From NCBI GenBank assembly GCA_964016885.1, contig OZ024740.1, positions 353,524,001 through 353,588,000 on the forward strand: a stretch of 64,000 bases of DNA, in the 5' to 3' direction. The DNA comes from Eledone cirrhosa. Lineage: Eukaryota. The stretch's first letter is position 1, and every line of letters begins with the position of its first letter. Made by a program: the position numbers and the translations under genes. Below are positions 35,003-57,753 of the stretch, piece by piece. The notes under the pieces were generated by a model. The model saw only the letters and a program-made list of their open reading frames with translations, ran no database searches and had not been told where the DNA came from.

Positions 35003-35352
35003 AATGATATTAAATAAATGGAAACTATATTTATAAAACCATATTTATTCTATTATATATATTTCGAGGGTACCAAAACTTTGGTACGCTCTCAGATAAA
35101 ATACAAAGTTTGTTTTATAAATTTTGACATAACCAAGAAAAGATACCTTAACGGTTCAAGTTTTTCCAAGAAATATGTATAATAGAATAGAATAAAATAT
35201 GTATAATAGAATAAATATGGTTTTATAAATATAGTTTCCATTTATTTAATATCATTGAATATTATACTCCAGTAAACTTGTCGAGTGATCTGAATTAGTT
35301 ATAAACATTTATATTTGTTGAATTACCAACAAATTGAATATACCTTTTGCTT
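35003..35352. repeat. Fold-back non-coding element family F1, copy A
   Basis: Arms at about 35003-35065 and 35195-35256; homologous to 39867-40215 and 57184-57670. Confidence 0.85.
35047..35102 (-). ncRNA. Type I hammerhead ribozyme (F1), core with a 3-nt deletion
   Basis: ATTTTAT-CTGA[del]-GAG c GTACCAAA gt TTTGGTAC c CTC-GAAA-TATATA-TA-ATAGAAT. Confidence 0.65.
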
Positions 35353-35443
35353 ATATATATATAAAAATTAGGGTAAATATTGATGCAATTCAATTCAAGC
35401 ACTCAACGTACTTTTTCCACATAGGAGTGACGGAGTAAATATC

Positions 35444-35692
35444 GAATAAGGAAAAGCGAAGTAGTTTCAGATGTTCAAGTCCTTTAATAATAATGGTGTG
35501 ATAAATATTTCAATGACGACATGTCGATTCAATTTGGATTGCCTCGGAAACATAACCTTATTATGTAACAAGCTGTCTGATGATGTCACGACACTCGCAC
35601 ACAGAACAGTGTGGCCAGTGTCGTCATTGAAATATTTATCACAGCATTATTATTAAAGGACTTGAACATCTGAAACTACTTCGCTTTTCCTT

Positions 35693-35696
<4 letters not shown>
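35444..35696. repeat. Fold-back non-coding element family F2
   Basis: Arms at about 35444-35521 and 35619-35696 (~78 bp); abuts (TA)n at 35697. Confidence 0.85.
35572..35645 (+). ncRNA. Type I hammerhead ribozyme (F2)
   Basis: GCTGT-CTGATGA-tgtc ACGACACT..AGTGTCGT catt-GAAA-TATTTA-TC-ACAGC; perfect 5-bp stem I and an AUC cleavage triplet. Confidence 0.75.
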
Positions 35697-35771
<75 letters not shown>

Positions 35772-36054
35772 CTCTGATGGTAGCTAAGATGCTTCCATAG
35801 GCGGTATGCCGGTTGAGCACTCTATGCTTTTACAGAGCAGAGTATGATATGAGAGAGTATGATGTGAGAGAATATGCTCCGAAATCATTAGACATGTCCG
35901 TCGAACCTGCGGGTCCAGAATCAGACAGATCCACACAATGATCGCGTCTCGAGCTGTCCGCCGGGGAAACAATTGTAACACACAATAAATTGAGTTCAGA
36001 TGCATCACTGATTTTTCGTTTTCTCCCCTCCCCCTCTCTCTCTCTCTATATATA

Positions 36055-36271
36055 TATAGTGTGTGTGTTCGCTTATTACGCGAAGATGCGCCCGTGAACG
36101 CGGCGCGTAAAGCAAATTCGCATAAGTCTAATTTTCTGATAAATAAAGAAAATTAAAAACCACACGCGTTATACAGCGTTATTCGCGCAAAATGAATATT
36201 TAATATTTTTGCAAGAGGCGTTAAAGCGAATTCACGTACTTCAAATTCGCGTAAAAAGCGAACAGACTGTA
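36055..36271. mobile_element. Tc1/mariner-pogo-type MITE
   Basis: Imperfect terminal inverted repeats (gtgttcgcttattacgcgaa / ttcgcgtaaaaagcgaacagactg-TA); TA flank; CpG-rich relative to background. Confidence 0.6.
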
Positions 36272-36360
36272 TTGGACCTGTTATTTTTATCTAAAGAGAT
36301 TTTTTCCAATTCCACCTTCCACCCCACCCGTCCCTTCAATCTATATTATTTCTCATTCTT

Positions 36361-36396
36361 TCTTCTGATTAAGGACTAGCGTCCGAAACGTTAAGA
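36361..36396 (+). ncRNA. Minimal type I hammerhead (G8>U mutated) in a probable solo PLE pLTR fragment (~36300-36480)
   Basis: TCTT-CTGATTA-A-GGAC tagc GTCC-GAAA-CG-TT-AAGA. Confidence 0.65.
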
Positions 36397-36563
36397 TCAT
36401 ATTCCTGCTATCTCAAGCTTTAACCTAATATATTCCCCCCATATACTGTACCGATTGTGTTGTTATTTCTGTTTACCTTTTACATACATATACGTACATA
36501 TATACATACATACATACATACATACATACATACATACATACATACATACATACATACATACAT

Positions 36564-36612
<49 letters not shown>

Positions 36613-36754
36613 TACACATACATATGTACACATACATATGCACATATATATACACACACATATACACCGATACACACGTACATAGACATACATACACACA
36701 CACACATATATATAAACACACACATACACATACATACATACATACATATATATA

Positions 36755-36977
36755 ATATCAAAGATTAGCGAAAAGGAGAATATTTATGCAGAACTGATGA
36801 GAAAGCTGCAGATACTCCACCCTGATTACACCTTCAGATTTATGCCTGTGATTATTGGGACACTGGGGTATGTTAGTAACTGCCTCAATACAAATCTTGA
36901 GAAGCTAGGCTTCACAGGAACAGAAAGAACACAACTAGTTAGGATATTACAAGTACAATCCATTAATGGAACAGTAA
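36755..36977 (+). mobile_element. 3' ORF fragment of the 49295-50985 RLE-LINE family
   Basis: Near-identical to 50595-50818 (LQILHPDYTFRFMPVIIG). Confidence 0.85.
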
Positions 36978-36997
36978 TATATATATATATGTATGTT

Positions 36998-37318
36998 ATC
37001 TCTTTCTCTTAATTTCGAGTATAATTTTTTGACCGGCTACCTTCCCGGTGGCAAGGTTGTAAAAGAAAAGAAATTGTCATTCCTCGAATCGCAAGAATGT
37101 TTTGCAAATTTTGAAGGTGCCAGCTATCGCAGCCATTTGTAGACTATGAATAAGGGAGCTGCGCTCTTTGTCCGCAAATCCAAGTTCAGTCATACTTTGG
37201 TCCAAGCGGGTTGGTATATAACCCGTAGCTCCAATAATTGTTTCTACTTTAGGCACAAGGCCAGCAATTACCCAGTGCATTACTGGTACTATAATGATGG
37301 GTATAAAGCTAAAGGTGT
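36998..37318 (-). mobile_element. 3' end of an RLE-LINE (same family as 51170-52142) containing a 57-bp SINE S1 tail insert at 37234-37290
   Basis: Reverse-complement match to 51940-52142 (IHSLQMAAIAGTFKI plus 3' UTR). Confidence 0.85.
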
Positions 37319-37324
37319 ATGTAT

Positions 37325-37658
37325 GTAGTAAGACCAGTTGTTGACTACCAGGCTGCTGTTGGAGATGCTACTCATCATGCTTGCCAAACATGCGGTAGAG
37401 AATGTAAATCAGCAGGAGGGCTCAAGCGACATGCAAAAGTACACGAACTCCAACCACAGCCGACTATTCCCAGTGAATGTTTTAGTTGCCGACTCTGTGC
37501 AAGACATTTTAGATCATTGGCTGGGCTAAAAAGCCACATTCGATCGCAGCGCTGTTAGTTGCTATCGTGTGTGTGTGTGTGTGTGTAGATATGTTTGTGT
37601 GTGTGCGTGTGTGTGTATATATACATGTATATGTATATTATTATTGTTGTCATTATTA

Positions 37659-37705
<47 letters not shown>

Positions 37706-39624
37706 GTTATTGTTATTCCTTGAATCTCAGTCATTGATGTTGGTTAACTGGAAAGTCCGTTGGATTGAATATCAAGCCACTACCTGCAGCCTCAGATATT
37801 CAGGACGTATCGGAGGGTTCTTGCTGTTCCAAGCAAGCATGCCTTTTGAAGCGTTCCAAAAAGCGTGAAGGGGCCGATTTTCTTTAACCATCCCTGGAAA
37901 CTTTTGGAGATAGTCCCCAGTGCGCCTATGACAATCGGGATCACTTTGACTTCATGGCAGTTCCAAATCCTTTTCACCTCCCACTTTAGGTCCTGGTATC
38001 GGTTAATTTTCTCCCTCTCCTTCTCTTGCACTCTCGTGTCGAACGGGCAGGCCACATCCACAATCAGGCACGATCTTTTTTCTTTGTCCACAACCACCAG
38101 GTCAGGTCTATTGTGTTCCAGTTTTTTGTCCGTCTGTATCCTAAAATCCCACAGCACCTTCACCTGATTATTCTCCATCACCGCCTCTGGCCTATGCTCA
38201 TACCATTTCTCAGAATGTGGTAAATTGTTTACTTTGCACAGGTGCCAGTGGATCACCCTGCCCATCACATCGTGTCTCCAGCCCTTATAGTGGGTCTGGG
38301 CTAGGTGTTTACACTCGGACACAATGTGAGCCACAGTCTCCTCTCTCTCTCCACAGATCCTGCACAGTGGGCTAGCCTCCTCCTTGTAGATATGGTGCTT
38401 CAACCACTTCGTTTTGAGGGCCTGCTCCTGCGCAGCCATTAGCATTCCTTCTGTAGCCTTTTTGAGGTCTCCTCTTCTCAACCAGTTCCATGTCTGTGGA
38501 TCTCTAAATTCAGTTTTCTCAAAGAAGGTACTATGAAGGGATTTTCCCTTAAGGCTGCTCTTCCTCCTTGATGTTATTTCCTCCTTGGACATCCCCTGGC
38601 CTACTGTCCCCTCCTTCAGTACAGTTCTGAGCATTGGCTCCTTACTATAGGTCACGTATTTGTATAGGTTGTTTTTCTCCATCTGAACACAGTCCTCTAT
38701 GCTGATAAGACCTCTTCCACCCTCAGATCTCCTTAGGTAGAGTCTATCGACATCACTCCTCTTGTGGAACATGTTGTAGATAGTCAATAGCTTCCTAGTC
38801 TTCCTATCCATTTCTTTTTGTTCAGCAACATTCCATCTCAGAATTCCCGCACTGTACCTAATAATAGACACAGCTCGGGAATTTACTGCACTTATGGCAT
38901 TTCTGCTGTTCAGATGTGACTTCAATACGCTCCTTACTCTCCGAATGTATTCAGTTCTTAACAATTCCTTCATTTTTTTGTTCTTTATGCCATCAGCCTC
39001 CAGAACGCCCAAATACTTGTATCCTTCCTCAGAGTCAATTTCCTTTATCATCTCACCTGTTGGTATCTGGATCCCGTTACTTCTGCTCAACCTACCCCTC
39101 TTCATCACAATGACTCCACATTTACCAATACCAAACTGCATACATATATCACTGCTGAAAATACGGACAGTGTCAACAAGCACATCCAACTCCTTCTCAC
39201 TTTTCCCGAAGAGCTTAAGATCGTCCATGAAGAGGAGGTGATTGATGGTAAGCTCTCCCCTTCCCAACTTGTATCCTGCTCTCACTTTTCGCAGCATAAT
39301 GGTCAAGGGCATCAGGGCAAGGACAAACAACAGAGGGGACAGGCTATCTCCCTGGAAGATACCTCTCTTGATCTTCACGCTTCCCAAGGATACTCCAGTT
39401 GATGTCAACTCTGTCTCCCAGGACCCCATACTCCTGCCTAGCAACTGTCTGATGTTATCTGCCACCCTGAAGATCTCCAGGCTTTTGGTGATCCAGGAAT
39501 GAGGCACCATGTCAAATGCCTTTCTGTAGTCTATCCATCCCATGGCTATTATTATTATTATTATTATTATTGTTATTAATGTATATGTGTGTGTGTATAT
39601 ATGTGTGTGTCTGTGTGTGTGTAT

Positions 39625-39656
<32 letters not shown>

Positions 39657-39850
39657 TTTCTTATTTTTTATTTTATTTTATTTTTTATTTATTTATTAAT
39701 ATATATATTTTTTTTTCTCGTGCAATGGCCATACTCGATAACGAGGAGGCAGCCATCATGTATGTATGTATGTATGTATGTATGTATGTATGTATGTATG
39801 TATGTATGTATGTATGTATGTATGTATGTATGTATGTATGTATGTATGTA
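37325..39850 (+). mobile_element. Second, shorter copy of the 31377-33010 RTE-ZF element, interrupted by a Dong-like insertion
   Basis: 37328-37715 matches 31999-32370; 39548-39765 matches 32340-32480 plus 32880-33005; (TGTA)n tail. Confidence 0.85.
37717..39547 (-). mobile_element. R4/Dong-like non-LTR retrotransposon (RT + CCHC + restriction-like endonuclease), 5'-truncated, 583-aa open frame
   Basis: DYRKAFD, GIFQGDSLSP, FMDDLK, CRICGEREETVAHIVSEC, RHD, RPDLVVVD, VDVACP and KINRY motifs; flanked by (TAT)n on both sides. Confidence 0.93.
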
Positions 39851-39866
39851 TATATATATATACATA

Positions 39867-40215
39867 TACGATATTAATAAATGGAAACTATATTTATAAA
39901 ACCATATTTATTTCATTATACATATTTCAAGGACACCAAGTTAAATTATGGTGTGCTTTCATCAGATAAAATATAATATAGAGCAGTTTTATAAATAAAT
40001 ATTGACATACCCTTAAAGAATGCAACCATTACTGTTGAAAGTACACCATAATTTAACTTGGTGTCCTTGAAATATGTATAATGAAATAAATATGGTTTTA
40101 TAAATATAGTTTCCATTTGTTAATATCGTATTTTTACTCCAATTATTTGTTTAGTGCTTTATATCAGTTATAAAAATATTTGCTTGTTGTATCCCAACAA
40201 CTTAAATTGAACTTT
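39867..40215. repeat. Fold-back element F1, copy B
   Basis: Arms at about 39867-39961 and 40036-40130; the inversion junction falls at a shared TGAAA. Confidence 0.85.
39910..39972 (-). ncRNA. Type I hammerhead ribozyme (F1), intact core
   Basis: ATTTTAT-CTGATGA-AAG ca CACCA..TGGTG tc CTT-GAAA-TATGTA-TA-ATGAAAT. Confidence 0.8.
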
Positions 40216-40832
40216 CACATATATATACATATATATATATTTAACAGTTTGGTCATAAGCCAATTTTTAGGTAAAGTGTTCAGCTATAGGGGAGCTAACT
40301 CAGAGCAAAATAAAAATACGCTTACTTCCCTTACATCACAATTTTGTGACTCACGATGGTATCGCCAAATACCATTTTTTTTCACCTCAGAACCTCATGA
40401 TTACATGATTTTACATTTATATAAATATAGACAAATCCAGTCCATCTCCTTTGGGGAATGCTTTCTGTAGTTGGCGATAGATAGATAGGGATACATAGAG
40501 ACAAAAAGAGTAATACATAGATAGATACAAATCACTCTGTGTGTGTGTGTGTGTGTGTGTGTTCTAGTTAGTGTTTTATTTCATTATCATTTCTAGCGAA
40601 ACCAGTTACCACAATGTTGATAGATAGATAGGAATACATAGATACAGAAAGAGTAGTATATAAATAGATACAACTCAATCTGTGTGTGTGTATGTCTGCT
40701 CGCGCGTGGTAAAAGTTAAGGTTTTATTTCGCTGTCATTTCTAGCATGACAGGTTACCACAACATAGCTCTTTGTGCCATGTACGACAGACAGGCACACA
40801 GACAAATCGATAAAAGCCCAACCGCAGGCCCT

Positions 40833-43800
40833 CTAAAAGACGCAACCGGCGTTGTTCGGGAATGAAAGTGTTCTTTATATATTAGAAAAAGAAAGCAGAA
40901 CATGTTGTATAAATTCTATTTATCCTTCAATGAGGTACATGATGAAATCAATTCTGAATTCATAATACAGAAATTAATAAAACATGAAAATACAAAATTT
41001 ATCAATGTTATGAGGGGAGATAAATTCTATCATGTGTTGAAGGAAATTACTGGAGAGCTTCTGGGTAAACAGCATTCTTTATTTTCTGCTTCGAAGCATA
41101 GGCAAATAAGTTTTGTAAACTACGCACCCTAGAACAACAAACGTAAAGTTGACCATGAGAAAAGAAAGGCTTATTTAAGTGCAAGCCAGTAGATTTCAAA
41201 GTCTGACCTCCAGCTTTATTGATAGACATTGCGAAGCAAAGTCGCACTGGGAATTCTATTTCAAATGGCTTGCCCGTTGGTGTGATTGGAATTCTTGTAA
41301 TGGAAATATCGTCCCCAGAAGCACACCCAGTGATTATGGTAGCTTCAATCACATTAGGTAATAATTTCTTCGCAATCAACCTTGTCCCATTTCATAATTT
41401 AGGAGGATCTAAATTTCTTAGACACATTATTGGGACTCTTACCTTCAGGAAAAGTTTCTGTGGAGGAGTTCCAGGTGGTTCAAGAGAATTACGAAACTCT
41501 GTTGGGTTGTGGACAGCTTGATTGAAAATTCCTCTTGACTGTCGAAACGATTTCATAATATGCCCGGCGTTTTTTTGGAAGACGTTTAGGTTCCCGTTCC
41601 TTCACAAATGCAACCAACTTTGTGATGTCAAAATTTGTCTCTTCCGCAAACTCTCTTGAAGTTAAATCACTTTGATTTTGGCAGTACAGAACCAGACTCT
41701 TGCAAAGTCTTGCCTCCCATGACCAAAATTGATCCTCAATTTCAATCAATGGTTGATTGAAAATATCTTCACAGAACTGAATATTGATACCTGGGTTTGC
41801 ATGTTGAACTGCCTACTTTAAGTCCCCAGCCATATCCTCTTGATGTTTCATTCAAAGTTGTCGGGGACTGCCAAGTTGACACATGTTCAGCATAATGGCA
41901 AAAAGGTTACGGAGTTTCCTTGGAGAATATGACACTGATGCTTCAGTCAATGCAAGGTCCCAATGATCATCATTTTCTAACAAACCTTTTTGATAGCATG
42001 CTACCCTATATGTTTTACACATTGACTCTCCTCAAATCTTGGAATTATTTGGAACCACATAATTCATGCAAAATGACCAGTTGAATGATGGCTGGGTGCC
42101 TCTCATGAATGGAATAATTGAAAATGCGCCAAAAAGCCTCATTGCTACTGGTGTATCTTCCTCTCTCATACTGTGCAACTTCGTCATTTGTATTTATCTG
42201 CTGACTGACATTCTGCAAAAGAGTGTATGTTGCAACATCTAAACCTTTGTATTCATATTTGCAAACATACTTAATATATTGAACAGAGTTGCAGAATTCA
42301 ACATTGATATAGGGCTTTGAAAGTTTTTGTAAGAGGAGGACAGTAGGGTACAACCCACCGATTGTCAATGATGAATTCTTACCCATTCTCTTTTTTTTTT
42401 CGAAGTGAATCCAACCTGCCCAGGTTTTCTTCTCCTGTAAATGGAGTAGTCATCTTCTTCAGTTTTGGTTTATTGTATAGGGGGACGGGGTGGTTCTTGG
42501 TACACATTTTATCCCTCATGCATGGGGGGGATGGATTAATTGAACCACAGGGCCCATGAATCATTTGTGACTTGACAATTTCATGCAGCAAAGGATATTA
42601 TGTAGCCAAATCAAAATGTGGGCATTCAGCAATCCTCATTTTTGCAATTTAATTGTGTACGTGTCACATTAGACTGGTCCAAAGTCTTCTCATTTTTTTA
42701 GGAGATCCATCAGCTTTATGACTTTATGACACCCTAGCTATAATATTATGGCGATCTTTGAGTTATTGATGTTAATAAAGTTCACTCTTTATTTCATGCC
42801 ATGCTGGGTTATATGTGAATGTAATGAAGAGATCTGGACGACCATAGTGTCTGATATATGTAAGTTCATCTTGGGTACGCTCATGCATATACCGTGGACT
42901 TCCTGTAACGCTTGATCGAAGAATAACAAAGCTGTCCAATGTTATCAGCAGCCAATGCTCCTTCATTACTGATTGCATCTCTCAGTTGAATGTATTCTGA
43001 TGCATGGAGATCTTTCTAATGTGTTCTGATGTAAAGAAGCCTTTCTCCTCCAATATTTTGCATACATATCAACTGCAAATTGCTGGAAGAGCTCACGTGA
43101 ACGATGAAGAATATTGAAGTTTTGCTCTATTAACATGAAAAGGTAAGCACAGAATTCCATACAACTTACTGTTTTTTTCAGTGTAGGATCTCTTGTTTTA
43201 ACATCTGTTTTGTTTTTATACCAAATTGATATCCATCTTGGCCAAATACACAGATTCATGGATACTGGAGCGCATCATAAGATTGGTGGGTTGCATTTAT
43301 GCGCTACAACTTATTTCCTCTTCCTTGAATAACAATATCGCTCCTCCAAGTAATAATTATCCTCCTCGCCAGTAATAATTGCTTCTACTTCGTTTGCAAC
43401 AGGGACATTGTAGCAGCCTCTGTGTTCACCAACAGGATTTTTGTCTGTATCAATGACTACCTTGTACTCAGTAAGTGGCACAGATTCCAATTCATATTAG
43501 AATTTTCTGATGTTGCTATTGTTTGCATGCAACGTATCTTGCAACTCAAATATTAACTCTTCTTTCAGATTTTGGAAGGTTCAATGACCCTTGCAAAGCC
43601 TGTTCCTTGCAATTTGCCACAACATATAACTGTAAAAACTTGAATTTTGTTTTCAGTTGGCAACCAAGATCAAATACGCTGGTATACTTGACCTTGAACG
43701 TTAATGGTTGGCTTGAAGTTTCTTTCTAATGTTTTTCAAGAAGTGCATGGTCTTTGATGTGTTTCCCCAAAGCAATGCCTTCAAAGTATCTGGGGTGTAC

Positions 43801-44500
43801 CAAACGTCGGTAGAACAACCGTTCCCCCCACAACACATAGTGAGGGTTTATCTTTCCCATTTCTTTCTTTTACAAAAACTGCACTCTTTTGACATTGCAC
43901 CAAAACCAATCACTTTTTTGTCTTTGTCTTACATCCTTTAAATGTTTTTCTCTTTCCTTTTTTGATTCTTGGCCGCTGCGGGTTGTATTTTGTTGACGTA
44001 ATTGTTCTGACTGTTTTTCCCGTGCCCCTGCTTACAGCAGCTCTCCTCCGGTCGTTTTCATGTCTTTGCTGTGCAGGGGACTCTAGTGCCCTTGCTCTGG
44101 CTACCTGTACATACCTTTTCTGCACTGTAGAATACTGTTCGTCTGCATGTCCCCTGCCTTGACATGAGATTATTTCGGTTAGATCAATGTCTTCACCAGG
44201 AAAATGCTTCCTTTCCAATTGCAGTTAGGAAAAAAACTCTTGATAGCCTTTCTGAAAGATTTTCTCTTGCCTTTACCTAAAAGTCGAAACGATTCAAGCA
44301 GTCCTGAACTTCTTCAGAAGTCGAGGAAATATCTAAGAATTCAATATTAGGTCCATTTAAACAGTTGTAGGAGTAATAAGTTATTGACAGCAGTGGTTGA
44401 AGGATTGAAAAAGGTTGAACTCGAATTTTCCTCGGGATTCTTGTTCTCTTCATCGCCAGTTGGAAGAAGGGGACTACATGTTCAATCATGAGCAAAATTT
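40833..44500 (-). mobile_element. Decayed Helitron (Rep-helicase pseudogene)
   Basis: Rep motifs (QQFAVDMYAK, GSPRYMHERTQD, GRPDLFITFTYNPAW, MIHGPCG, INVEFCNSV..IKYVCKY) and PIF1-like helicase C-terminus (FPVRLCFAMSINKA.GQTL, FSHGQLYV..SRV). Degenerate 3' hairpin cccgaacaacgccgg followed by TTAG at about 40833-40860. The 5' boundary is uncertain. Confidence 0.9.
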
Positions 44501-45194
44501 ATGTCCAGAAAATGTTTTGAATTCAGCAAGTCACATAATCTTTTAATAAGTAAATGATAATGTTCCCCATGTTTCTTTTCAGTCGAACTTACATAGTTCG
44601 TCAATGTAAGTATATACGAAAGTTAAACTTCGTAAGACGTTGTCGATGAATTTTTGAAAGCTCATATAACATGAAGAAAAATTCATAGTCCGATAGGTGC
44701 GGTAATTTCAGATTTATGGATATCTTTAGGCTCTATAGGGATAAGATTGTAAGCCCCGACCAAGTCAATTTTTGAAAAAAAAAAAATGTTGCAGCCTAAA
44801 TAAAATTCGTAAAGTAGTGAAATGTTAGATGCGTTATGGCGTAGAACAAAATGCTTTGCAATATTTGTTTACTTTGAGTTTAAATTCCATGGAAGATAAT
44901 TTTGCCTTTCATACTTTGCAGGGTGATAAAATAAATCATCAACCAGCCCAGAGTGGTGAAACGGAGGAATTGTTAAGACGTTGAACGAGATGTTTTTTGT
45001 ATTTGTTTCGTCTCATTGTGTTCAGAGCTCCATTGTAGTTTATTTGGATAGTAGACTTAACCAGTCGTCTCGTTTAACGCCTCACCTGACTCTTGGATGT
45101 CTTAAGAAGAGTCTACTCTGTTGCGTCCAAGCCTGATCTTGGAGACCTTGACAGGAGCTATCGGCACTGTTCTAATTCTTCACGACTTAAACAG

Positions 45195-45560: not shown

Positions 45561-45730
45561 AGGTAAATTGGGGCAAGATTGATACTGACTGTTAGTTGTA
45601 CATCTGCGGCTGTCCTTTCTGTAGCTGATGCATCAATAATGTAGTCACTTAGACCTAACATACTGACATAAATGTAAATGAACAATGAGTATAATTGAAG
45701 CGATGAAAGAAAGAGCATTTTCGTCTCTCT

Positions 45731-45732
<2 letters not shown>

Positions 45733-45818: not shown

Positions 45819-45824
<6 letters not shown>

Positions 45825-46937: not shown

Positions 46938-46975
<38 letters not shown>

Positions 46976-46983
<8 letters not shown>

Positions 46984-47656
46984 CGTCCTTTCACGCACAA
47001 GGCGTCAAGGTACGCATGTATTGTCCAACCAAGTGCCAGTGTGGTTCAATGGCGGGTTAATAAATTAACGAGCCAGAACAAATATAAACAAGGTTTAGTA
47101 AATAATGAAAAAGTTTCAAAATAAATTTTAAAAAATTGACTTTACCTACTATAGTTACCTTTTACTAAACCTTGTTTATATTTGTTCTGGCTCGTTAATT
47201 TATTAACCCGCCATTGAACCACACTGGCACTTGGTTGGACAATACATGCGTACCTTGACGCCTTGTGCGTGAAAGGACGTATTTCATATTACTACTACCT
47301 CCACATACGTTGAGAACAAACCGGGTCATTCCGACTGCTGCTGATAACAGCGGTGGCTAGTTCGACCTACCTCCTTTTGCCTCTATCTTTACTACGGCCC
47401 TTGATAAACCTGTTCTACATCATCCACTCTCATCCCAGGAACAGTCTTTGATAGCGCTAGTTTGTGATTTAAATTCAGGAATTTTATATTCTTTGAATGA
47501 AAAGAACCTTCTGACGAGAATCTCTCTTTGCAACGAAGGCCGTATGGCCTACGTTTTATTTCTGGGATTCGAAACCGATCGGTAAAGGTAACTATAGTAG
47601 GTAAAGTCAATTTTTTAAAATTTATTTTGAAACTTTTTCATTATTTACTAAACCTT

Positions 47657-47662
<6 letters not shown>
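46976..47662. repeat. Non-coding element F3: inverted arm plus a terminally redundant 483-bp unit, in (TA)n
   Basis: 46976-47102 is the reverse complement of 47161-47287; 47583-47662 is the reverse complement of ~47084-47163; tttactaaacc recurs at 47161 and 47644. Confidence 0.88.
47506..47589 (+). ncRNA. Type I hammerhead ribozyme (F3) with an enlarged loop II
   Basis: acctt-CTGACGA-GAATCTC-(~39 nt)-GGGATTC-GAAA-CCGA-TC-ggtaaaggt; stem I is imperfect. Confidence 0.65.
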
Positions 47663-47719
<57 letters not shown>

Positions 47720-47751
47720 CGCCAGGTGTAGATAAATATGCGGAAAAATTA

Positions 47752-47896
47752 TCTTCTTCTTCTTCTTCTTCTTCTTCTTCTTCTTCTTCTTCTTCTTCTT
47801 CTTCTTCTACTTCTTCTTCTTCTCCTCCTCCTCCTCCTCCTCCTCCTCCTCCTCCTCCTCCTCCTCCTCCTCCTCCCTCCCTCCCTCCCTCCTCCT
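47752..47896 (+). repeat. Compound (TTC)n-(TCC)n polypyrimidine microsatellite
   Basis: Direct reading. Confidence 0.95.
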
Positions 47897-48042
47897 CGGT
47901 GTCATACATACATATCCCCATAGAAATAAATATTTTAAATAATTATGTCTCTCAGCCACTAACATTAATGCAAACAGTAGGAATATGGATCAAATGATTT
48001 TATGCTACTTAGCTAGTAGTTTTTATTATTATTATTATTATT

Positions 48043-48232
48043 GGATTGACAGTATCGGTAGAGGGTCGGACGCCATGCTTTCCACCATAGAGTTACGGCC
48101 CTTTATAGTCTGAGCTCAAATCCCGCCGAGGTTAACTTTGCCTTTCATCCTTATGGGGTCGATAAAATAAAGTACCAGTAATACACTGGTATAATTGCTG
48201 GCCTTGTGCCAAAAGTAAAAACAATTATTATT
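48043..48232 (+). mobile_element. SINE S1 copy inserted in (TTA)n
   Basis: Closely similar to 18318-18502; flanked by ATT repeats. Confidence 0.88.
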
Positions 48233-49294
48233 ATCAGAAACCATTATTTTTTTTATTATTCCACATCTATTTTCTCGATCGAGTTCGATTGTTTCTTGAA
48301 GTTGCTGCTACTGGTGTTGCTGTTGTTGTTGCTGTTGCTGTTGTTTCTGTTGTTGTTGCTGTTGTTGCTGTTGTTGTTATTGTTGTTGTTGATAGCGATA
48401 GTGGTGGTGGTGATAATAATAATGGTGATAAGGATGATGACGATGCTGCTGATGTTAATATGTTAGCTACTGTTGAAGCAGACGATGAAACGAAATAAGA
48501 AGAAAAGGATAATAGGAGAATTAGTTGTTGGTTCCGGTAGAGGCAGTGGTGTTGGTATTGAATGGATGGCTACATATATATACAGATCTTTAGACATATG
48601 TATGGGTTGGAGGGAAAAAAAGGATGCATGGCTAATTAAATGGAAGGGTATATTGCAAAGCTGCTTAGCCGACGGTCATATGCTTCTGCGATGTTTAATT
48701 GTTTAAGAAGCCATACAATTAAGAGTTATAGTGGAAATACTTGGGTCCGTCAAAGAAGAAATATATGGCTTCTTTTTTATTTCAATGGTAAAAGGTCTGG
48801 AAATAGAAGTTTTAAAAAATCGATCAACAATCCCGGTAGCGATACACGGCCATTTGAAAACGAAACAATTGTACTCATTTGTCTTTATCTCGTTGCTTTT
48901 AACTGAATATGATTAATTATATCTACCTAACTACCTTTGTTCCGTTGTTTTTTTCTTTGTTGCTTTCTTTCTTACTTACATTAATTTTTTCTTTCCTTTG
49001 CTATCTTTATCTTTATATCCATCCATACATGCTTACACACATGCATACATACATACATGCATGCATGCATACATACATACATGCATACATACGTATATGC
49101 TTACATACATACATGCATGCATATATACATGCATACATATATGCATGTATGCATACATACATGCATACATACATACACACACATATACATATGTATGCAT
49201 GCATGTATGTATGTATGCATACATACATGCATGCATACATACATGCATGCATACATACATGCATGCATACATACATGCATACATACATATATAC

Positions 49295-50985
49295 GAAACT
49301 CTATGCCAAGAACATGGATGGGATGAAGAAAAATCTTGACCTGGTTACAACGTTCTCAAAGGATATAGGAATGGAATTTGGCCAAGATAAATGCTTCTAC
49401 ATGACTGTAAAGTGGGGAAAAACAACAACCCAATCTAGCAACATTGTCATCAATGGCCTAACTGTTTCACCGATATCTGATGAGGACTGCTACAGACCTG
49501 GGGATAGATGAGAACATATCTTATAATGGTATCTGTAATAAGGAACGCGTAACCAGGGAATACTACACCCGATTAAGAAAGATTTGGTCATCGGAACTCT
49601 CTGCGCAAAACAAAACAGTGGCTCACAATGTGTTTGCTGTGCCTGTCCTAACACCAACGCTTGGAATACTCAATTGGACGATAGACGAAATCTGAGCAGT
49701 TGATGTTAGAACTCGAAAAATACTGAACAACACCGGAAACTTCCACATCAACAGTGACATAGACCGCCTTTACTTGAAACGTAAGCAGGGAGGCAGAGGC
49801 CTAACATCAGTCCAGACAGCATTTGAATGTCGCATCATATCCCTCCGACAACATCTACGAACCTCGAAGCGTAGGAGCCCGTTTCTCGAGCAAGTCTATC
49901 TGCATGAAACAGATAAGATCATGAGAGTTGGGAAGGAACTCCTCGAGAGATATTCCCTGTGTGATAATCAAAAACTCACACCCAGGGAAGTCGCTCAGCA
50001 CTATCGCAGTGAATCCACGGATGAAAAACTGCATGCTTATCAGCAAAAAATCATGCATGGATATGTTGCCAGGAAGCTCCAGAGTGAGAGTAATATAGAT
50101 AAAGAAAGTAGTCTATCTTGGACCAACAACCGCTATATTGGCTCCCACTTTGAAGGATATGCTTTTGAAATCCAAGAACAGGAAATACCTGATTCACGAA
50201 ATATCTGATTCACAAAAGAGATAGGGATGCAGGCAAAACACCTACATGTGATAATAAGTGCAGACTCTGCAGAATTAACATCGAAGATGTCACCCATGTC
50301 ATCAGAAGCTGTCCAAAGATGTCATCGCGGTACTATCTACCTATGAGGCATAATGTAGTGGCCAAAACACTGTACAATACAATCCGTAGAAAAGATAGCC
50401 CCGATAATAAACACATTAAAAGCTACAGCAATGTGGAAGACATCCATATGCATTATATGAAAGAGTACTGGTGGAATGTTCCAGTAAAAGCCCCAATAAA
50501 ATGCAGGCATAATAGACCAGATATTATGATATGGGAGAGGGAAAAGAAAGCATGCACAGCAGTGGAAATTAGCTGCCCAGCAGATGCCAATATAATATCA
50601 AAGATTAACGAAAAGGAGAATATTTAAGTAGAACTGATGAGAAATCTGCAGATACTCCACCCTGATTACACCTTCAGATTTATGCCTGTGATTATTGGGG
50701 CACTGGGATATGTTAGTAACTGCTTCAATACAAATCTTGAGAAGCTAGGCTTCACAGAAACAGAAAGAACACGACTAGTTAGGAAATTACAAGTACAATC
50801 CATTAATAGAACAGTAAAAATATGTAAAACATTCCAAAAATTTTGCATCTAATAACTGCATATACACATGTCTAGATACAAAGCATATACACATGCACAC
50901 ATACAACTTCAGTGTTACTATCCGGGTTTCATATGATGTTAATATGGATTTTAGACCCCGGCCACCTTCCTTGCGTGAGAAGTAT
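49295..50985 (+). mobile_element. 5'-truncated RLE (R4-like) non-LTR retrotransposon, frameshifted, followed by (TATG)n
   Basis: FSKDIGMEFG.DKC, GGRGL, CRLC..EDVTHV..C, RHN, RPDIMIW and VEISCP motifs. Confidence 0.88.
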
Positions 50986-51169
50986 GTATGTATGTATGTA
51001 TGTATGTTTGTATGTATTCTTCTGGTTTTATAATTTCACAAATTTTTACCAATAGAGAGAGAGTCGGTTTCTAACATTCTCATTGGAATTTACACAACAT
51101 CAACTAGCTAGATTATGTATGCATGCCTGCATGTGTAGATATGGATGTAATTGTATTTGTGGATATGTA

Positions 51170-52142
51170 TATATCCTTCAACAGAGGAAAAAGGTTGGCA
51201 ACCATCTTGCCCAGGTTTATGAGCATGAAAAAAAAAATATCATTAGAATAGCCACTGATCTGGAGGAGAGATATGGAATAAAGCCTGATATAAATCTCTC
51301 ACCCAGAGAAATCGGAAGATCCTATTCAATGTTCAAACAAAATGAAAAAAATTGACCAATTTACAGAAAAAGTTGTGCATGGATACTCGAGACGTAAAAC
51401 ACAGACCATAGAGGGGATAAACTACTCAAAAAGCCTGGCATGGAGTTCCGACAAGTTTATGACATCACACCTTGAGGGATATCTCTATGTAATACAGGAA
51501 CAAGAACTCCCTACCAAATATCTGCTGCACAAAAGGGGAGTCCCATCAGCTGACAATAAATGTAGGCTATGTAAAACAAAGATCGAGGATGTAAGCCACA
51601 TTGTTGCCAGCTGCGAAAGAATGTCATCTCGCTACTACCTCCCCATGAGACACGATGGGATAGCTAGAACCATCTGGAACGCACTTCGGAAAACAAAATT
51701 AACAACAAACGAGGAAGAAAAAATTTGGAGACAGAGGCACTAAGGAATACTGGTGGAACCTGAAAATAAAAACTGCCACCAAATTAAAGCACAACCGGCC
51801 TGATATTGTTGTTTGGGACCACACATTGAAAACGTGTTCTGTTGTGGAGATCAGCTGCCCACTTGATGTAAACGTTGTCAGAAAAATACAGGAGAAGGAG
51901 GACATCTACGGAGCATTGATGAGGAGTTTACAAATCCAGTTTGGACCAAAGTATGACTGAACTTGGATTTGCGGACAAAGAGCGCAGCTCCCTAATTCAT
52001 AGTCTACAAATGGCTGCGATAGCTGGCACCTTCAAAATTTGAAAAACATTCTTGCGATTCAAGGCATGACAATTTCTTTTCTTTTACAACCTTGCCACCA
52101 GGAAGGAGGCCGGTCAAAAAAATATACTCGAAATTAAGAGAG
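51170..52142 (+). mobile_element. 3' part of a related RLE (R4-like) element
   Basis: CRLCKTKIEDVSHIVASC, RHD, RPDIVVWD and VEISCP motifs; 3' UTR shared with 36998-37080. Confidence 0.85.
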
Positions 52143-52461
52143 ATATATATATATATACATACATACATACATACATACATGCACACACACATACATGCAT
52201 GCATACATACATGCATGCATACATACATGCATGCATACATACCTACATACACACACATATACGTATGTATGTATGTATGTATGTATGTATGTATGTATGT
52301 ATGTATGTATGTATGTATGTATGTATGTATGTATGTATGCATACATACATACATACATGGATACATACATACATATATGCATGTATGCATACATACATGC
52401 ATACATACACACACACACATACACATATGTATATATATATAGATAAGTGTATATAGATACA

Positions 52462-54994
52462 TAACGGTCGTTACATCGATGACTGTATCGGAGCCACGAC
52501 CCTCACCCGAGAACAGCTCGACTCCTTTCTCTCCTTCTTCTGCTCCTTCCACTCCTCCCTCCACTTCACCACCTCTATCTCCACCACCCACGTCCACTTC
52601 TTAGATATCTCCGTCGCCATCGACCCCTCCCACCACTCCCTCGTCACCTCCGCCTTCTTCAAACACACTGATTCTCACTCCTACCTCGACTTCACCTCCT
52701 CCCACCCTGATGCTGACTTTGACTCCCAGGCCCTTTCCCTAGTCAGCCATTTCATCCGCAGAGGTTATCCCCCCTCCCCCGTCCACACCGCCCTCACTCG
52801 CGTCCGTGCTGTCCACCGCTCCACCGCCCTCCCCCACGCCACCCCTCCCCCCCTCCCCCTCCACTGCACCATCCTCAGCCTCATCCGACGCCTCCAGTCC
52901 GACCCCTCCACCTCCCACATCTTCCTATCCCCACCACTCCCCTCCTTCAAACGCGCACGCAATCTCCGCACCCTCCGCGTCCGCAGCTCCCTACCCCAAC
53001 CCACGCTTTCTTTCCCCCCCGCTTCCCTTCCCTGTTCCAGGCCTCGTTGCAACAGCTGCCCCACATCACCAACACCACCACCTTCCAGTGTCCCAACGGC
53101 CACTCTCTCTCCGGCATGCCTTCCGCTGCACTTCCTCCAACCCAGTCTATGGACTTCGCTGCACGGAGTGCAGCGCAACCTACGTCGGACAGACTGGACG
53201 TCGCCTGGCGGACCGGTTTACCGAACACCTCCGGGATATTGGTCTCGGCGGGAGTTCCTCCATCGCCCGCCACTTTGGCTCCCCTGGACACTCCGCGCAC
53301 CACCTCACAGTCTGTGGCCTACTCCAATGCCACGGAACACCCGCCACTCGCCTCAGGGTCGAACAACGCACCATCTTCACCCTACAGACCCACACTCCCT
53401 CCGGCCTGACTCCCCACCCCTATAGCCTTCGACCGCCCTGTTTCCACTCACCCCACATATCCCCCACTAACACACTCCTCCTTTTCACCGCCCACCCCCT
53501 TGGCCCACCCCACAACTAACAATACTAACAGCCCCACCCCACCCACGACCACCCTCCCCCAACTAACAATACTAACATCCGCACCCCTCCCCCTATCACA
53601 CATACACCCACCGGTACATATATAGACGCACTCACACTATCCACACACCCTACTACCACCACTAACCCTCACCCACACATCCACTCCAACCACCACACAA
53701 CTAATACCACTAACATCCCCCCGACCCCACGCACACGAACACACCCACCCACCCACACCCATTTACTCCACCCACTCTACACACCCTACAACCACTCACC
53801 CCACTAACACACCCACATTCAACCCTTTCTCCACCACCAGTATACTAACACCCACTAAAACCCCCTTCACCACACACACTCATCCAAACACGCACACACA
53901 CACCAGTACACTACACTCCCTCCACCGGCCCCCACACCTTTTCTCTCCCTCTCCCCGTTCCACCCACACCCATTCACACACACACACACATCCCACTAAC
54001 ACCTCTACTAATACACACCCCATCCCCCCGCATGACCCCCTCCTCACTCCACCTTTCACCCTACCCATCCTCTCCCCCTGTCCACCGCACCGCCGCACAC
54101 ACTGACACACAGACTTTCTCCACCTGCCATTCCCCTCTACTGCTGCTATGCCTTCTCCTGCCTTGACCCTCTGACCACTTCCTGTTGCGCGCGCACCTCA
54201 CATCTCCCTTCTTCCAACTACCACAACCATTGGCCATCGTTCCCACTATCCACTCCATAACATGGAAAATATTCGGCAACCCTTCACACCCTCTACGGAA
54301 CTACCTTAGGAACTTACCCACGGACATTCGCTCACAAAATCTTTTTTCGAACCACGCCACCTACATCCACAAAACTTATAAACACCAACACACACGTGCG
54401 TACCCCCACACATACACACACTCAACCTCCGGAATCCTCTCCCCCCACCCCTCTGACCCCTCCCCATCCACACGCACACACATTCCGCCCTACACCCCAC
54501 CCCACACACACACCTTTTCCTGAACATGGAACCTCGTTCTTCCCCCAACTCTCACATTCACATATACACACACACACGTACACCTACACACACACACCAC
54601 CTTCAGCCCTCCCCGCTCGGACACCCCGCCTCCCTCTCCCCACTCCACCACCACCCCTACACGCCCCATACCCTTCCACCACTTGTTTATCTTCATGTTT
54701 ATTTTAATTTTATTTTTTTAATTTTTTTATATTTATTTTTATTTGTACCCCTTCCACCGTTTTTCCTCCCTTTCCTCCCCCTTTTTTCTAAATGTCTCTC
54801 CTCCACTCCCCCACACACCCTCGGAACTCTCTTCCCATCCACTTTTCGCCTGAAGAAGGGCTTATGCCCGAAACGTCGTTCCCCACCCCCACTCTCAAGA
54901 GCGTGAAACTAATAAACCTTTGTCTGTACTGCCTCTCTGTTTTGTTCCCGTTCCATTTTTCACTACATATATCTATATATCCCTCTCTCTCTCC
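52462..54994 (+). mobile_element. C-rich Penelope-like element (RT C-terminus + GIY-YIG endonuclease + long 3' UTR/pLTR)
   Basis: RYIDD at about 52469-52483; HFLDISV and FKHTDSHSYLDFTSSHP; CTSSNPVYGLRCTECSATYVGQTGRRLADRFTEH (GIY-YIG); hammerhead near the 3' end. Confidence 0.9.
54847..54880 (+). ncRNA. Minimal type I hammerhead in the PLE pLTR
   Basis: cgc-CTGAAGA-A-GGGC ttat GCCC-GAAA-CG-TC-gtt; palindromic ACGT stem III, typical of dimeric PLE hammerheads. Confidence 0.8.
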
Positions 54995-55015
54995 CTATAT
55001 ATATATATATATAGT

Positions 55016-56157
55016 ACGTGAGGTATATGATTTTTAATGCAATGAAATATCTATGATCGTCGGCAAATCACTGATGAGGGACTCATTTTATTACATGTTA
55101 TCCATGTGCTACCTGCAGTATTTTTCTCTATATTTTATTACATATATTTACCCAAACTGCGATTCTGTGTTTTTTTCTCTCTCTCTCTTACTGCTCCCCC
55201 ATTCTCTCTGTTTCTCCTACCTTCTTTCGCCCCCTCTGTCATGTCAGTTAACTCTTCCTCACACTTTCACTTATTCACTGTTTCTCCTCTCTTCATTTCA
55301 TCCTGTACACCACGAAGGCTATTTTTCTCTCTTCTCACATGGCCATCGTTCGTGTCAGGTCTTTTTTCTAAAGCGCTCATATATTCACCTAGCTTATGCT
55401 AAACAGAATAATTTTGAAGCTTGTTTCTTTCCCCTACGGTTAGCTATACTCTTTGTTGTTCTCCTGTCTCACTCGCTTTACGCGTTTCAATTGTCCTAAT
55501 AACTTATTTTGGTTATTATTGCACCGACGTGAGGTATATGATTTTTAATGCAATGAAATATCTATGATCGTCGGCAAATCACTGATGAGGGACTCATTTT
55601 ATTACATGTTATCCATGTGCTACCTGCAGTATTTTTCCCTATATTTTATTACATATATTTACCCAAACTGCGATTCTGTGTTTTTTTCTCTCTCTCTCTT
55701 ACTGCTCCCCCATTCTCTCTGTTTCTCCTACCTTCTTTCGCCCCCTCTGTCATGTCAGTTAACTCTTCCTCACACTTTCACTTATTCATTGTTTCTCCTC
55801 TCTTCATTTCATCCTGTACACCACGAAGGCTATTTTTCTCTCTTCTCACATGGCCATCGTTCGTGTCAGGTCTTTTTTCTAAAGCGCTCATATATTCACC
55901 TAGCTTATGCTAAACAGAATAATTTTGAAGCTTGTTTCTTTCCCCTACGGTTAGCTATACTCTTTGTTGTTCTCCTGTCTCACTCGCTTTACGCGTTTCA
56001 ATTGTCCTAATAACTTATTTTGGTTATTATTGCACCGACGTGAGGTATATGATTTTTAATGCAATGAAATATCTATGATCGTCGGCAAATCACTGATGAG
56101 GGACTCATTTTATTACATGTTATCCATGTGCTACCTGCAGTATTTTTCTCTATATTT

Positions 56158-56162
<5 letters not shown>
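55016..56162 (+). repeat. Tandem repeat, 511-bp unit x ~2.2 (family F4); diverged solo fragment at ~32550-32825
   Basis: Units start at 55016, 55527 and 56038 and are almost identical; flanked by (TA)n; each unit has CTGATGA (55071, 55582, 56093). Confidence 0.95.
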
Positions 56163-56225
<63 letters not shown>

Positions 56226-56228
<3 letters not shown>

Positions 56229-56370
56229 TAGTTCCGTAGAGGGTGTGAAGGGTTGCCGAATATTTTCCATGTTATGGAGTGGATAGTGGGAACGATGGCC
56301 AATGGTTGTGGTAGTTGGAAGAAGGGAGAGAGAGAGGGATATATAGATATATGTAGTGAAAAAAAAAAAT
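56226..56370 (-). mobile_element. Inverted junction fragment of the C-rich PLE 3' region
   Basis: The reverse strand joins ~54955-54996 to ~54203-54305 through a shared TCTCCCT. Confidence 0.85.
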
Positions 56371-56400
56371 ATATATATATCATACATATATATATACATA

Positions 56401-56484
<84 letters not shown>

Positions 56485-56486
<2 letters not shown>

Positions 56487-57133
56487 ATTCGGGCTGTTTG
56501 TTTACAAACAAACCGAACATTATAATAATATTTACAAACAAACCGAATATTATAATATAATAGTAAACCCATACGTACATATATATATGTGTGCATGTAT
56601 GTATGTATATACATACTACTGTACGTCTGTATATATGTATATGTATGTACGCATTCATACTTATATTTAAGTATCAGCCGTACTAAGAGTGAGAAATGAA
56701 ATTTCATTTTTTCCATTTATCGTTTTCGGTACGCCCGGCCGACTAACTCACTCGATATGCAAATTAGGCTGCTCAGCCGTTAATATGCATAAGGAAAGTA
56801 TATACTTTCAAACGTTCAATCGACTGACAGGAAGGTATACGGTACTGATGACAGCTAATAAGCTAGAAACTAGCTCATCGTTCCTTTGTCAGTGTTGAAC
56901 AAAAGGGCAACGATGGTTGCCGAACACTGTACGGCTTAATTCGGGCAGTTTGTTTACAAACCGAACATTATAATGAATGTTCTGTAAACCCATACGTACA
57001 TATATATATATGTGTGCATGTATGTATGTATATACATACTACTGTACGTCTGTATACATATATGTATGTCCGTATACATACTTATATTTAAGTATCAGCC
57101 GTACTAAGAGTGAGAAATGAAATTTCATTTTTT

Positions 57134-57137
<4 letters not shown>
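56485..57137 (+). repeat. Partial tandem non-coding element F5 (unit ~450 bp) in (TA)n
   Basis: 56485-56716 is repeated at 56937-57137. Confidence 0.85.
56823..56893 (+). ncRNA. Type I hammerhead ribozyme (F5) with an extended stem I
   Basis: ACTGACA GGAA..CGGTa-CTGATGA-cAGCT aata AGCTa-GAAA-CTAGc-TC-ATCG TTCC tt TGTCAGT. Confidence 0.7.
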
Positions 57138-57190
<53 letters not shown>

Positions 57191-57229
57191 ATATTAATAA
57201 ATGGAAACTATATTTATAAAACCATAATT

Positions 57230-57293
57230 ATTTTATTATATATATTTCAAGGGCGACCAAGGTATATTATGGTCCGCTTTCATCAGATAAAAT
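57230..57293 (-). ncRNA. Type I hammerhead ribozyme (F1), left arm
   Basis: ATTTTAT-CTGATGA-AAG cg GACCA..TGGTC gcc CTT-GAAA-TATATA-TA-ATAAAAT. Confidence 0.85.
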
Positions 57294-57470
57294 ACAGGTT
57301 TGTTTTATAAATAAATATTGACATACCCGGAAAAAAGACAACCTCAACGGTTGAAATTCGCTGGATAGTGAAATTACAAGTACAATCCATTAATTTAATC
57401 CAGCGAATTTCAACCGTTGAGGTTGTCTTTTTTCCGGGCATGTCAATATTTATTTATAAAATAAATCTGT

Positions 57471-57534
57471 ATTTTATCTGATGAAAGCGCACCATAATTT
57501 ACCTTGGTCGCCCTTGAAATATATATAATAAAAT
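57471..57534 (+). ncRNA. Type I hammerhead ribozyme (F1), right arm
   Basis: Perfect 7-bp stem I (ATTTTAT/ATAAAAT), CTGATGA and GAAA cores, palindromic ATATATAT stem III, AUA site. Confidence 0.85.
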
Positions 57535-57666
57535 AATTATGGTTTTATAAATATAGTTTCCATTTATTAATATATTGTATATTTACTCCACTAATTTGTT
57601 GAGTGCTTTATATCAGTTATAAAAATGTTTAAGCTTGTTGAATCCCAGCAAATTAAATATAACCTC

Positions 57667-57753
<87 letters not shown>

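What the first reader, a model, noticed from the sequence alone, without database searches (positions are those of the whole stretch)
35003..57670. Family F1: three independent copies, all fold-backs, with covarying hammerhead stems
Copies at 35.0, 39.9 and 57.2 kb have diverged but keep their pairing. The stem II base is AAG/CTT or GAG/CTC. The upper stem is GACCA/TGGTC, CACCA/TGGTG or GTACCAAA/TTTGGTAC. Stem I is ATTTTAT paired with ATAAAAT, ATGAAAT or ATAGAAT (G-U tolerated). All three left arms start at about the same position, yet each copy inverts at a different point, so inversion seems to be a recurrent product of the integration mechanism.
Basis: seen in the sequence. Interest (0 to 1): 0.75.

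Follow-up and report, generated by a model that had tools for sequence, protein, structure and literature searches.

The report
Penelope stubs primed at two sites
The three mirror-image pieces are short stubs of a very common Penelope-like jumping gene (Hydra group) with a predicted hammerhead ribozyme; that layout is already known, but their fixed ends suggest that each stub was likely made when the two cut DNA strands started copying at two different hairpin-marked sites of the element's RNA, a testable idea for how these elements build their mirror repeats.

Summary
The three fold-backs are real. They are ribozyme-bearing terminal repeats (pLTRs) of a Hydra-clade Penelope-like retrotransposon. 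Long copies run into an RT + GIY-YIG ORF with the Hydra motifs; the hammerhead pattern has 36,464 genome matches, control 0. Inversion is common, not universal: 44 of 86 tail-anchored copies have an adjacent inverted arm ending at site A, about 85 nt inside the tail end B; 3 end at B. Inner ends cluster at a likely transcription start (16 of 37 within 7 nt, 1.6 expected). A and B each lie 7-9 nt before one of two similar hairpins. Best model: both nicked (TA)n strands prime reverse transcription, one at A and one at B, and the cDNAs join head to head. Inverted pLTR, tail and hammerhead are published PLE features; the A+B rule and hairpin pair I did not find in print. This scan has already reported them on other pieces of this genome.

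The parts
35002..35162 (-). Copy 1 (subfamily c1), A-arm: pLTR from near T (T+8) to site A, no tail
   Evidence: (L124)
35047..35102 (-). Copy 1 hammerhead remnant; core reads CTGAGAG (3 nt lost), predicted inactive
35163..35352 (+). Copy 1 B-arm: starts after the hammerhead core (local duplication at 35163-35194) and runs through site A to tail end B, then (AT)n
35266..35286 (+). Hairpin A of copy 1 (ACTC-13 nt-GAGT), 8 nt after site A
39854..39868 (.). Left copy of a 15-nt target-site duplication (includes about 3 nt that also fit the element); right copy 40219-40233
   Evidence: L094
39869..40040 (-). Copy 2 (subfamily c2), A-arm: T+12 to site A
   Evidence: (L094)
39910..39972 (-). Copy 2 intact minimal type I hammerhead motif (stem II AAG/CTT + ACACCA/TGGTGT; loop III TATGTA)
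40031..40218 (+). Copy 2 B-arm: starts at the core (T+88) through about 10 nt of microhomology with the A-arm (core reads CTGTTGA), ends at B; hairpin A at 40136-40155
57187..57369 (-). Copy 3 (subfamily c3), A-arm: from T (ends GGATAGT on + strand) to site A; hammerhead motif at 57230-57293
57370..57397 (.). Copy 3 junction filler, 28 nt, not element sequence upstream of T
57398..57669 (+). Copy 3 B-arm: T+3 to tail end B, then (AT)n
57471..57534 (+). Copy 3 intact minimal type I hammerhead motif: stem I ATTTTAT/ATAAAAT, CTGATGA, stem II, GAAA, palindromic TATATA, predicted cut after 57527
57585..57604 (+). Hairpin A of copy 3 (ACTC-12 nt-GAGT) at the start of the 85-90 nt tail

Best explanation
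F1 copies are short stubs of the hammerhead-bearing terminal repeat of a Hydra-clade Penelope-like retrotransposon, and each fold-back was likely made in one insertion by twin priming at two fixed internal sites of the element RNA. Shown: link to the RT/GIY-YIG ORF; two fixed outer ends A and B about 85-90 nt apart; A+B pairing; a fixed inner limit T (A of YC|ACTA(T/C)CC); a related hairpin 7-9 nt after each of A and B; (TA)n targets with 3-6 nt that fit both target and element; 11-15 nt target duplications around the whole unit. Inferred: T is the transcription start; the endonuclease nicks both strands of (TA)n; one 3' end primes at B, the other at A, each placed by its hairpin (possibly by the two halves of a protein dimer); both cDNAs run toward the RNA 5' end, often to T, and are joined head to head by microhomology or filler. 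Since A and B lie only about 190 and 275 nt from T, priming near the 5' end of the mRNA gives these short stubs; long copies need read-through RNA from tandem copies. Stubs lack hairpin B and are likely dead ends. The hammerhead is predicted to work only as a dimer and was likely uncut in the templates.
For: Long copies continue 5' through about 1.4 kb of AT-rich DNA into an ORF with RT motifs, C-N-C-x5-C linker and GIY-YIG; L090 shows pLTR-ORF-pLTR with a 4.0 kb period. 30 of 30 loci with hairpin B lead into the same ORF start or carry it; 462 such sites against 36,464 hammerhead matches. Of 86 tail-anchored loci: 44 adjacent inverted arms end at A (35 of 44 on the modal base or 1 nt off), 3 at B, 8 distant or interrupted, 31 none seen (11 loci run beyond the reference). 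Among the first 30 motifs of contig C1 (26 insertions) 13 clear and 1 probable A+B units, no A+A or B+B (read partly by eye). A-arm 5' ends at T-1..T+5: 16 of 37 (1.6 expected), B-arms 13 of 66 (2.5 expected). The A-arm reaches more than 5 nt further 5' than the B-arm in 26 of 44, the B-arm further in 11, which simple copy-back of one cDNA cannot give. Joints: 22 overlaps, 4 blunt, 18 fillers. Informative target duplications in 5 of 39 (11, 14, 15, 15, 15 nt; shuffled mean 1.0, 2/500 as high). Arms share the haplotype in 16 of 18 c3 pairs (0.56 expected, p 0.003). In vitro precedent: PAc nicks and extends both strands, starts at two internal sites that bound the tail, prefers AT-rich DNA and needs no ribozyme cleavage (PMC11167929). 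63 of 81 B-arms cross the predicted cut site; 1 begins within 3 nt of it.
Against: All mechanism steps are inferred from genomic products. The two arms overlap in most units, so one RNA must be copied twice with strand displacement or two RNAs are used; L165 has arms of two haplotypes. T as transcription start is not shown: the test for a cap-derived G at T junctions was inconclusive (46 sites: 13 C, 12 G, 12 T, 9 A before removal of non-family rows) and no RNA was available. The hairpins are weak alone (z -1.6 and +0.1), and hairpin B was collected with a pattern that demands it. In PAc the start site is not homologous to the cut DNA, here 3-6 nt fit both, which blurs A and B by that much. 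Loci are the best-scoring hits of three queries, not a random sample, and tail queries miss units with a partial tail. No intact ORF among 8 long copies.
Confidence: 0.7

Rival explanations
1. Self-priming (snap-back), on the nascent cDNA or on an antisense RNA, makes the hairpin, and the endonuclease trims it to give the one-sided tail (proposed for rotifer PLEs).
For: PMC3846280 infers self-priming on an antisense template from junction palindromes (passages). Seven of 44 units have equal arms, some with perfect palindromic joints (L065, L071, L105), and some share rare variants in both arms (L061, L105).
Against: Copy-back of a B-primed cDNA needs the A-arm to lie inside the B-arm; 26 of 44 break this. 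Solo A and solo B arms with the same ends exist. L165 has two haplotypes. An antisense version needs opposite trimming in the 26 and the 11 cases.
Confidence: 0.15
2. A and B are endonuclease cut sites in a DNA or RNA-DNA intermediate, not RT start sites; the paired motifs are endonuclease recognition signals.
For: Craig et al. ascribe the tail to EN-mediated resolution; the Penelope EN needs the tail for recognition (as cited in PMC11167929); both sites are AT-rich like the target, and the motif is a short stem with little energy.
Against: PAc start sites map on the tail ends in vitro. Hairpins A and B differ by a compensated pair (ACTC/GAGT vs GCTC/GAGC) with free loop length, which fits a single-strand structure.
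Confidence: 0.1
3. F1 is a self-propagating non-autonomous palindrome or retrozyme-like element that spreads as a fold-back unit.
For: Very high copy number, no ORF in most copies, hammerhead present; non-LTR retrozymes derive from pLTRs (bioRxiv 10.64898/2026.07.22.740005, abstract, introduction and passages).
Against: Junctions differ in every copy examined; no head-to-tail arrays of the stub as in retrozymes; stubs lack hairpin B; arms match the pLTR of long ORF-bearing copies.
Confidence: 0.04
4. Assembly or library fold-back artefact.
For: No long read was laid; the 57.2 kb joint was not covered by contigs.
Against: Fixed biological ends, diverged arms, fillers, target duplications, and joints in read-derived contigs.
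Confidence: 0.01

Closest known systems
Hydra clade of C-terminal EN+ Penelope-like elements (Craig et al. 2021, PMC8557442; section 11, passages and supplement parts read), including Hydra-1_Obim of Octopus bimaculoides
   Same: Domain order RT then GIY-YIG; DKT, CxCx5C, CxxC and CxH motifs, no CCHH; (TA)n target; hammerhead in the pLTR; motif-by-motif likeness to the published Hydra proteins by eye; Penelope-13_HM is listed with an inverted 5'-truncated copy.
   Different: A different family from Hydra-1_Obim (other hammerhead and N-terminus); RWR for RWK; unit about 4.0 kb, not under 3 kb, from about 1.4 kb of non-coding DNA; stem III reduced to one or two pairs with a 6-nt palindrome.
Inverted 5'-truncated pLTR with one-sided 30-40 bp tail of EN+ PLEs (PMC3846280, PMC8557442; passages)
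   Same: Head-to-head arms, tail on one arm only, microhomology at the joint, target duplications of about 10 bp.
   Different: Tail is 85-90 nt; here counted (A+B 44, B+B 3), with a fixed inner limit and a hairpin after each end.
PAc (Poseidon, Anolis carolinensis) in vitro TPRT (PMC11167929; main text parts 1-2 of 4 read)
   Same: Two internal RT starts bounding the tail, near a stem-loop; both strands nicked and extended; AT-rich target; uncut RNA as template.
   Different: PAc starts lie 111-118 nt inside the ORF and are not homologous to the target; here both sites lie before the start codon, fit the target over 3-6 nt and have one hairpin each. That paper does not explain inverted units in the parts read.
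Minimal type I hammerheads of PLEs (Cervera and de la Pena 2014, PMC4209133; part 1 of 4 read)
   Same: Conserved core, long stem II, minimal palindromic helix III that needs a dimer; pairs on opposite strands 100-700 bp apart were already noted.
   Different: Seven-pair A-U stem I; loop III palindrome varies (TATATA, TATGTA, TACGTA, TGCGCA) while staying self-complementary.
LINE-1 twin priming (recalled, no paper read)
   Same: Second target strand primes a second cDNA, joined head to head by microhomology.
   Different: In L1 the second site is variable and the arms do not overlap; here both sites are fixed and the arms usually overlap.

Membership tests
EN+ Penelope-like element | Single ORF with RT followed by C-terminal GIY-YIG endonuclease | tested here: met
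   RT motifs and order in L037/L046/L088/L090; Pfam GIY-YIG E 4e-4, 21 bits, just under the 22.6 cut-off; RT piece had no Pfam hit; 67 homologues at 31-43%
EN+ Penelope-like element | pLTRs from partial tandems, direct or inverted, with one-sided tail | tested here: met
   L090 pLTR-ORF-pLTR plus inverted piece; L088, L089, L093; tally
EN+ Penelope-like element | Hammerhead motif in the pLTR | tested here: met
Hydra clade | DKT in place of DKG | tested here: met
   VKSDKTNN in L087-L090
Hydra clade | N-terminal RWK motif | tested here: met
   present as the conservative variant RWR(AF) at the matching place (published RWKAFF)
Hydra clade | CxCx5C linker before the endonuclease | tested here: met
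   CNCRNKSNC
Hydra clade | No CCHH in EN; CxxC and CxH around conserved E and N | tested here: met
   one Cys in the core, CSLC and CKH present
Hydra clade | (TA)n insertion preference | tested here: met
   flanks
Hydra clade | Generally short (<3 kb) | tested here: not met
   period about 4.0 kb in L090; a described tendency, not a diagnostic; the excess is non-coding
Hydra clade | Placement in the clade on an RT tree | not tested
   published proteins were only read in the supplement and compared by eye
Type I hammerhead ribozyme | Core CUGANGA / GAAA / UH with three helices | tested here: met
   3 of 6 window arms; stems supported by pair counts; single-strand folds recover stem II but stem I only partly; no Rfam hit
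Type I hammerhead ribozyme | Self-cleavage | not testable with these tools
   no pile-up of cDNA ends at the cut site: 1 of 81 within 3 nt
Non-LTR retrozyme | Head-to-tail tandem units each with a hammerhead, no ORF link needed | tested here: not met
   copies are solo or head-to-head; head-to-tail neighbours were rare among the first 100 listed motifs; read-through copies lead into the ORF

The most novel reading that the evidence does not exclude
Hydra-clade PLEs carry a pair of small hairpins that set two RT start sites; a dimeric RT-endonuclease engages one hairpin per subunit and primes both target strands at once, so the inverted pLTR and the one-sided tail are the normal product of a programmed double-priming reaction, and the tens of thousands of stubs record the mRNA 5' end to the base.
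Probability: 0.5. Interest if true: 0.7.

Novelty: new member of a known kind. Interest (0 to 1): 0.45.

Why it matters
How PLEs, the closest relatives of telomerase RT, make inverted repeats and tails is stated as open in PMC8557442. This family gives base-exact ends, a candidate RNA signal and a strict A+B rule that can be tested in the existing in vitro system. As a sequence feature alone the finding is ordinary transposon debris. About 36,000 hammerhead motifs and many long inverted repeats may also matter as a source of double-stranded RNA in this genome (inference, not tested).

Tried and rejected
Rfam scan of the window: 0 hits. Run search: no RNA holder listed, so expression and T could not be examined. 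RAD-seq reads and contigs did not span the 57.2 kb joint; 'opposite strand' joints are what ordinary non-inverted copies give on this stretch and were not counted as fold-back support. Cap-G test inconclusive. Ribozyme-cut templates: no pile-up. Pfam found nothing for the 388-aa RT piece. Look-up of earlier findings by sequence: nothing. Two apparent A+A units (L162, L177) proved to be damaged tail arms. Paper searches found no paper in the held library applying twin priming to PLEs or describing the hairpin pair; subscription journals, Repbase entries and the supplements of the bioRxiv preprint and of PMC11167929 were not seen and may bear on this. R-scape was not available; the count of structure pairs was used, and its upper stem II counts are lowered by a 1-nt bulge in c3-type rows. 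Rows dropped before counts: the three window copies and one duplicate, five tandem read-through loci (B-arm ends), eight loci without the A-end motif (that test includes the window copies).
Full report
Observation. The window is a piece of a 3.0 Gb microsatellite-rich animal genome (likely a cephalopod, inferred, not tested). The three copies are at 35002-35352, 39869-40218 and 57187-57669; BLAST within the window found no fourth copy with a match of 40 nt or more. Each has a minus-strand left arm and a plus-strand right arm meeting head to head, in (AT)n-rich flanks. The motif is a minimal type I hammerhead: stem I ATTTTAT/ATRRAAT, CTGATGA, stem II, GAAA, a 6-nt palindrome, TA. An intact core is in 3 of 6 arms. 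Rfam reports nothing.

Covariation. The exact pattern has 18,379 + 18,085 matches in the genome and 0 for the reversed control. On 27 motifs (3 from the window, 24 of the first 30 on contig C1) 93.7% of cells pair (shuffles 88.2%, 0/500; slid partners 34-55%); 8 pairs change on both sides, 7 in stem II and 1 in the loop III palindrome, none in stem I. Subfamilies show AAG/CTT, AGG/CCT, GGA/TCT, AAA/TTT at the stem base, and TATATA, TATGTA, TACGTA, TGCGCA in loop III, which stays self-complementary as expected for the dimer fold described in PMC4209133. The sequences are related, so the shuffle counts are not probabilities.

Identity. Long copies (L031, L034, L035) run 5' into the end of an ORF. 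A search with that piece gave 1,787 candidates, 40 scored, whose upstream DNA encodes RT motifs, a CNC-x5-C linker and a GIY-YIG domain ending CSLC...CKH. L090 is pLTR-ORF-pLTR with a period of about 4.0 kb, the 3' copy ending at A and an inverted 5' piece carrying the tail. The ORF starts about 45-55 nt after B and has RWR and DKT. These are the Hydra-clade marks of PMC8557442 section 11, and the published Hydra proteins match motif by motif by eye. The listed octopus member Hydra-1_Obim has another hammerhead, so this is a further family. None of 8 long copies has an intact ORF.

Ends. Tail queries of the three subfamilies gave 90 loci, 86 after removing the window copies and one duplicate. 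44 have an adjacent inverted arm ending at A (B-81 to -96, mostly -84, -87, -86 by subfamily), 3 an inverted arm ending at B, 8 a distant or interrupted one, 31 none; 11 loci run beyond the 480-nt reference. In position-ordered loci across about eight subfamilies, 14 of 26 insertions are A+B (one probable), none A+A or B+B. Inner ends pile up at T, the A of YC|ACTA(T/C)CC: 16 of 37 A-arms and 13 of 66 B-arms within T-1..T+5. T resembles the Inr-like TCACT noted in rotifer pLTRs, but a cap signature was not shown. In the window: copy 3 reaches T on both arms with a 28-nt filler, copy 2 joins T+12 to T+88 through about 10 nt of microhomology, copy 1 joins T+8 to a point behind the core.

Signals. 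Site A lies 7-8 nt before ACTC-N-GAGT and site B 7-9 nt before GCTC-N10-GAGC, seen only in copies that read on into the ORF (462 matches, control 0). I saw the repeated motif; reading it as a hairpin came from earlier finding e1-9815236. A similar hairpin is visible near the end of the published Hydra-2_Amil sequence. The element continues past A and B with 3-6 nt that equal the (AT)n flank. Target duplications of 11-15 nt flank the whole unit in 5 of 39 cases, among them window copy 2.

Mechanism. The A-arm reaches further 5' than the B-arm in 26 of 44 units and less far in 11, so neither arm is simply a copy of the other. Arms belong to the same subfamily in the 55 head-to-head pairs examined and share fine haplotype in 16 of 18, with one clear mixed pair. 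63 of 81 B-arms cross the ribozyme site. Together with the PAc data (both strands extended, two internal starts bounding the tail, ribozyme not needed) this favours priming of both target strands, one at A and one at B, run-off toward T, and head-to-head joining. These steps are inferred. Snap-back self-priming (PMC3846280) and endonuclease trimming remain weaker rivals.

Reality of the fold-backs. An exact 85-nt contig crosses the copy 1 switch in X1 and X2 (one sample, possibly the assembly's own; short side under 31 nt), and other family joints, several ending in TGGATAGT, occur in contigs. No long reads.

Novelty. Hammerheads in pLTRs, inverted pLTRs, tails, (TA)n targets and two internal RT starts are published. 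I found no paper with the A+B rule or the hairpin pair in four searches. The scan has reported both on other pieces of this genome and in another genome; those notes are not independent evidence. Papers seen: PMC8557442 (passages, section 11, supplement part 2 and passages), PMC11167929 (parts 1-2 of 4), PMC4209133 (part 1 of 4), PMC3846280 (passages), bioRxiv 10.64898/2026.07.22.740005 (part 1 of 5 and passages); L1 twin priming is recalled. Verdict: real, a new member of a known kind, with a testable mechanistic reading; interest 0.45.

Noticed in passing
window 35400-35697: A second hammerhead fold-back of an unrelated sequence family directly beside copy 1 (core at about 35577 on +; ACTCC...GTTGAGTGC hairpin on the - arm), same (AT)n setting.
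   Followed up: partly
window 61428-63939: Another PLE: 315-aa ORF end with CxxC linker and GIY-YIG (Pfam E 4e-7) on -, between 304-nt inverted arms, one with about 80 extra nt; Neptune-like by motif (recalled).
   Followed up: partly
window 46974-47660: 129-nt perfect inverted repeat followed by a hammerhead-like motif at 47506 and a partial direct copy, in (AT)n; a further family.
   Followed up: no
window 52457-53519: GC-rich decayed PLE-like ORF pieces with a weak GIY-YIG hit (E 0.013).
   Followed up: no
window 37792-39660: 622-codon open frame of a non-LTR retrotransposon (RT and C-terminal zinc/endonuclease-like motifs) just left of copy 2.
   Followed up: no
window 55016-56172: Three near-identical copies spaced 511 nt apart.
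   Followed up: no
L093 1668-8413 (oriented as): An A+B fold-back whose arms each hold about 3 kb including RT and EN: the same rule at full scale.
   Followed up: partly
L003, L025, L096: Rare B+B units with the tail on both arms.
   Followed up: partly
L214-L243, tail and region before the start codon: A 10-bp inverted repeat TCAGTTATAA / TTATAACTGA encloses site B and hairpin B and ends just before the ATG; no covariation seen and one half was demanded by the search pattern.
   Followed up: partly
L014, L021, L034, L087, L197/L198: Insertions of different subfamilies sit tail to tail in one (AT)n tract: repeated use of the same target.
   Followed up: no
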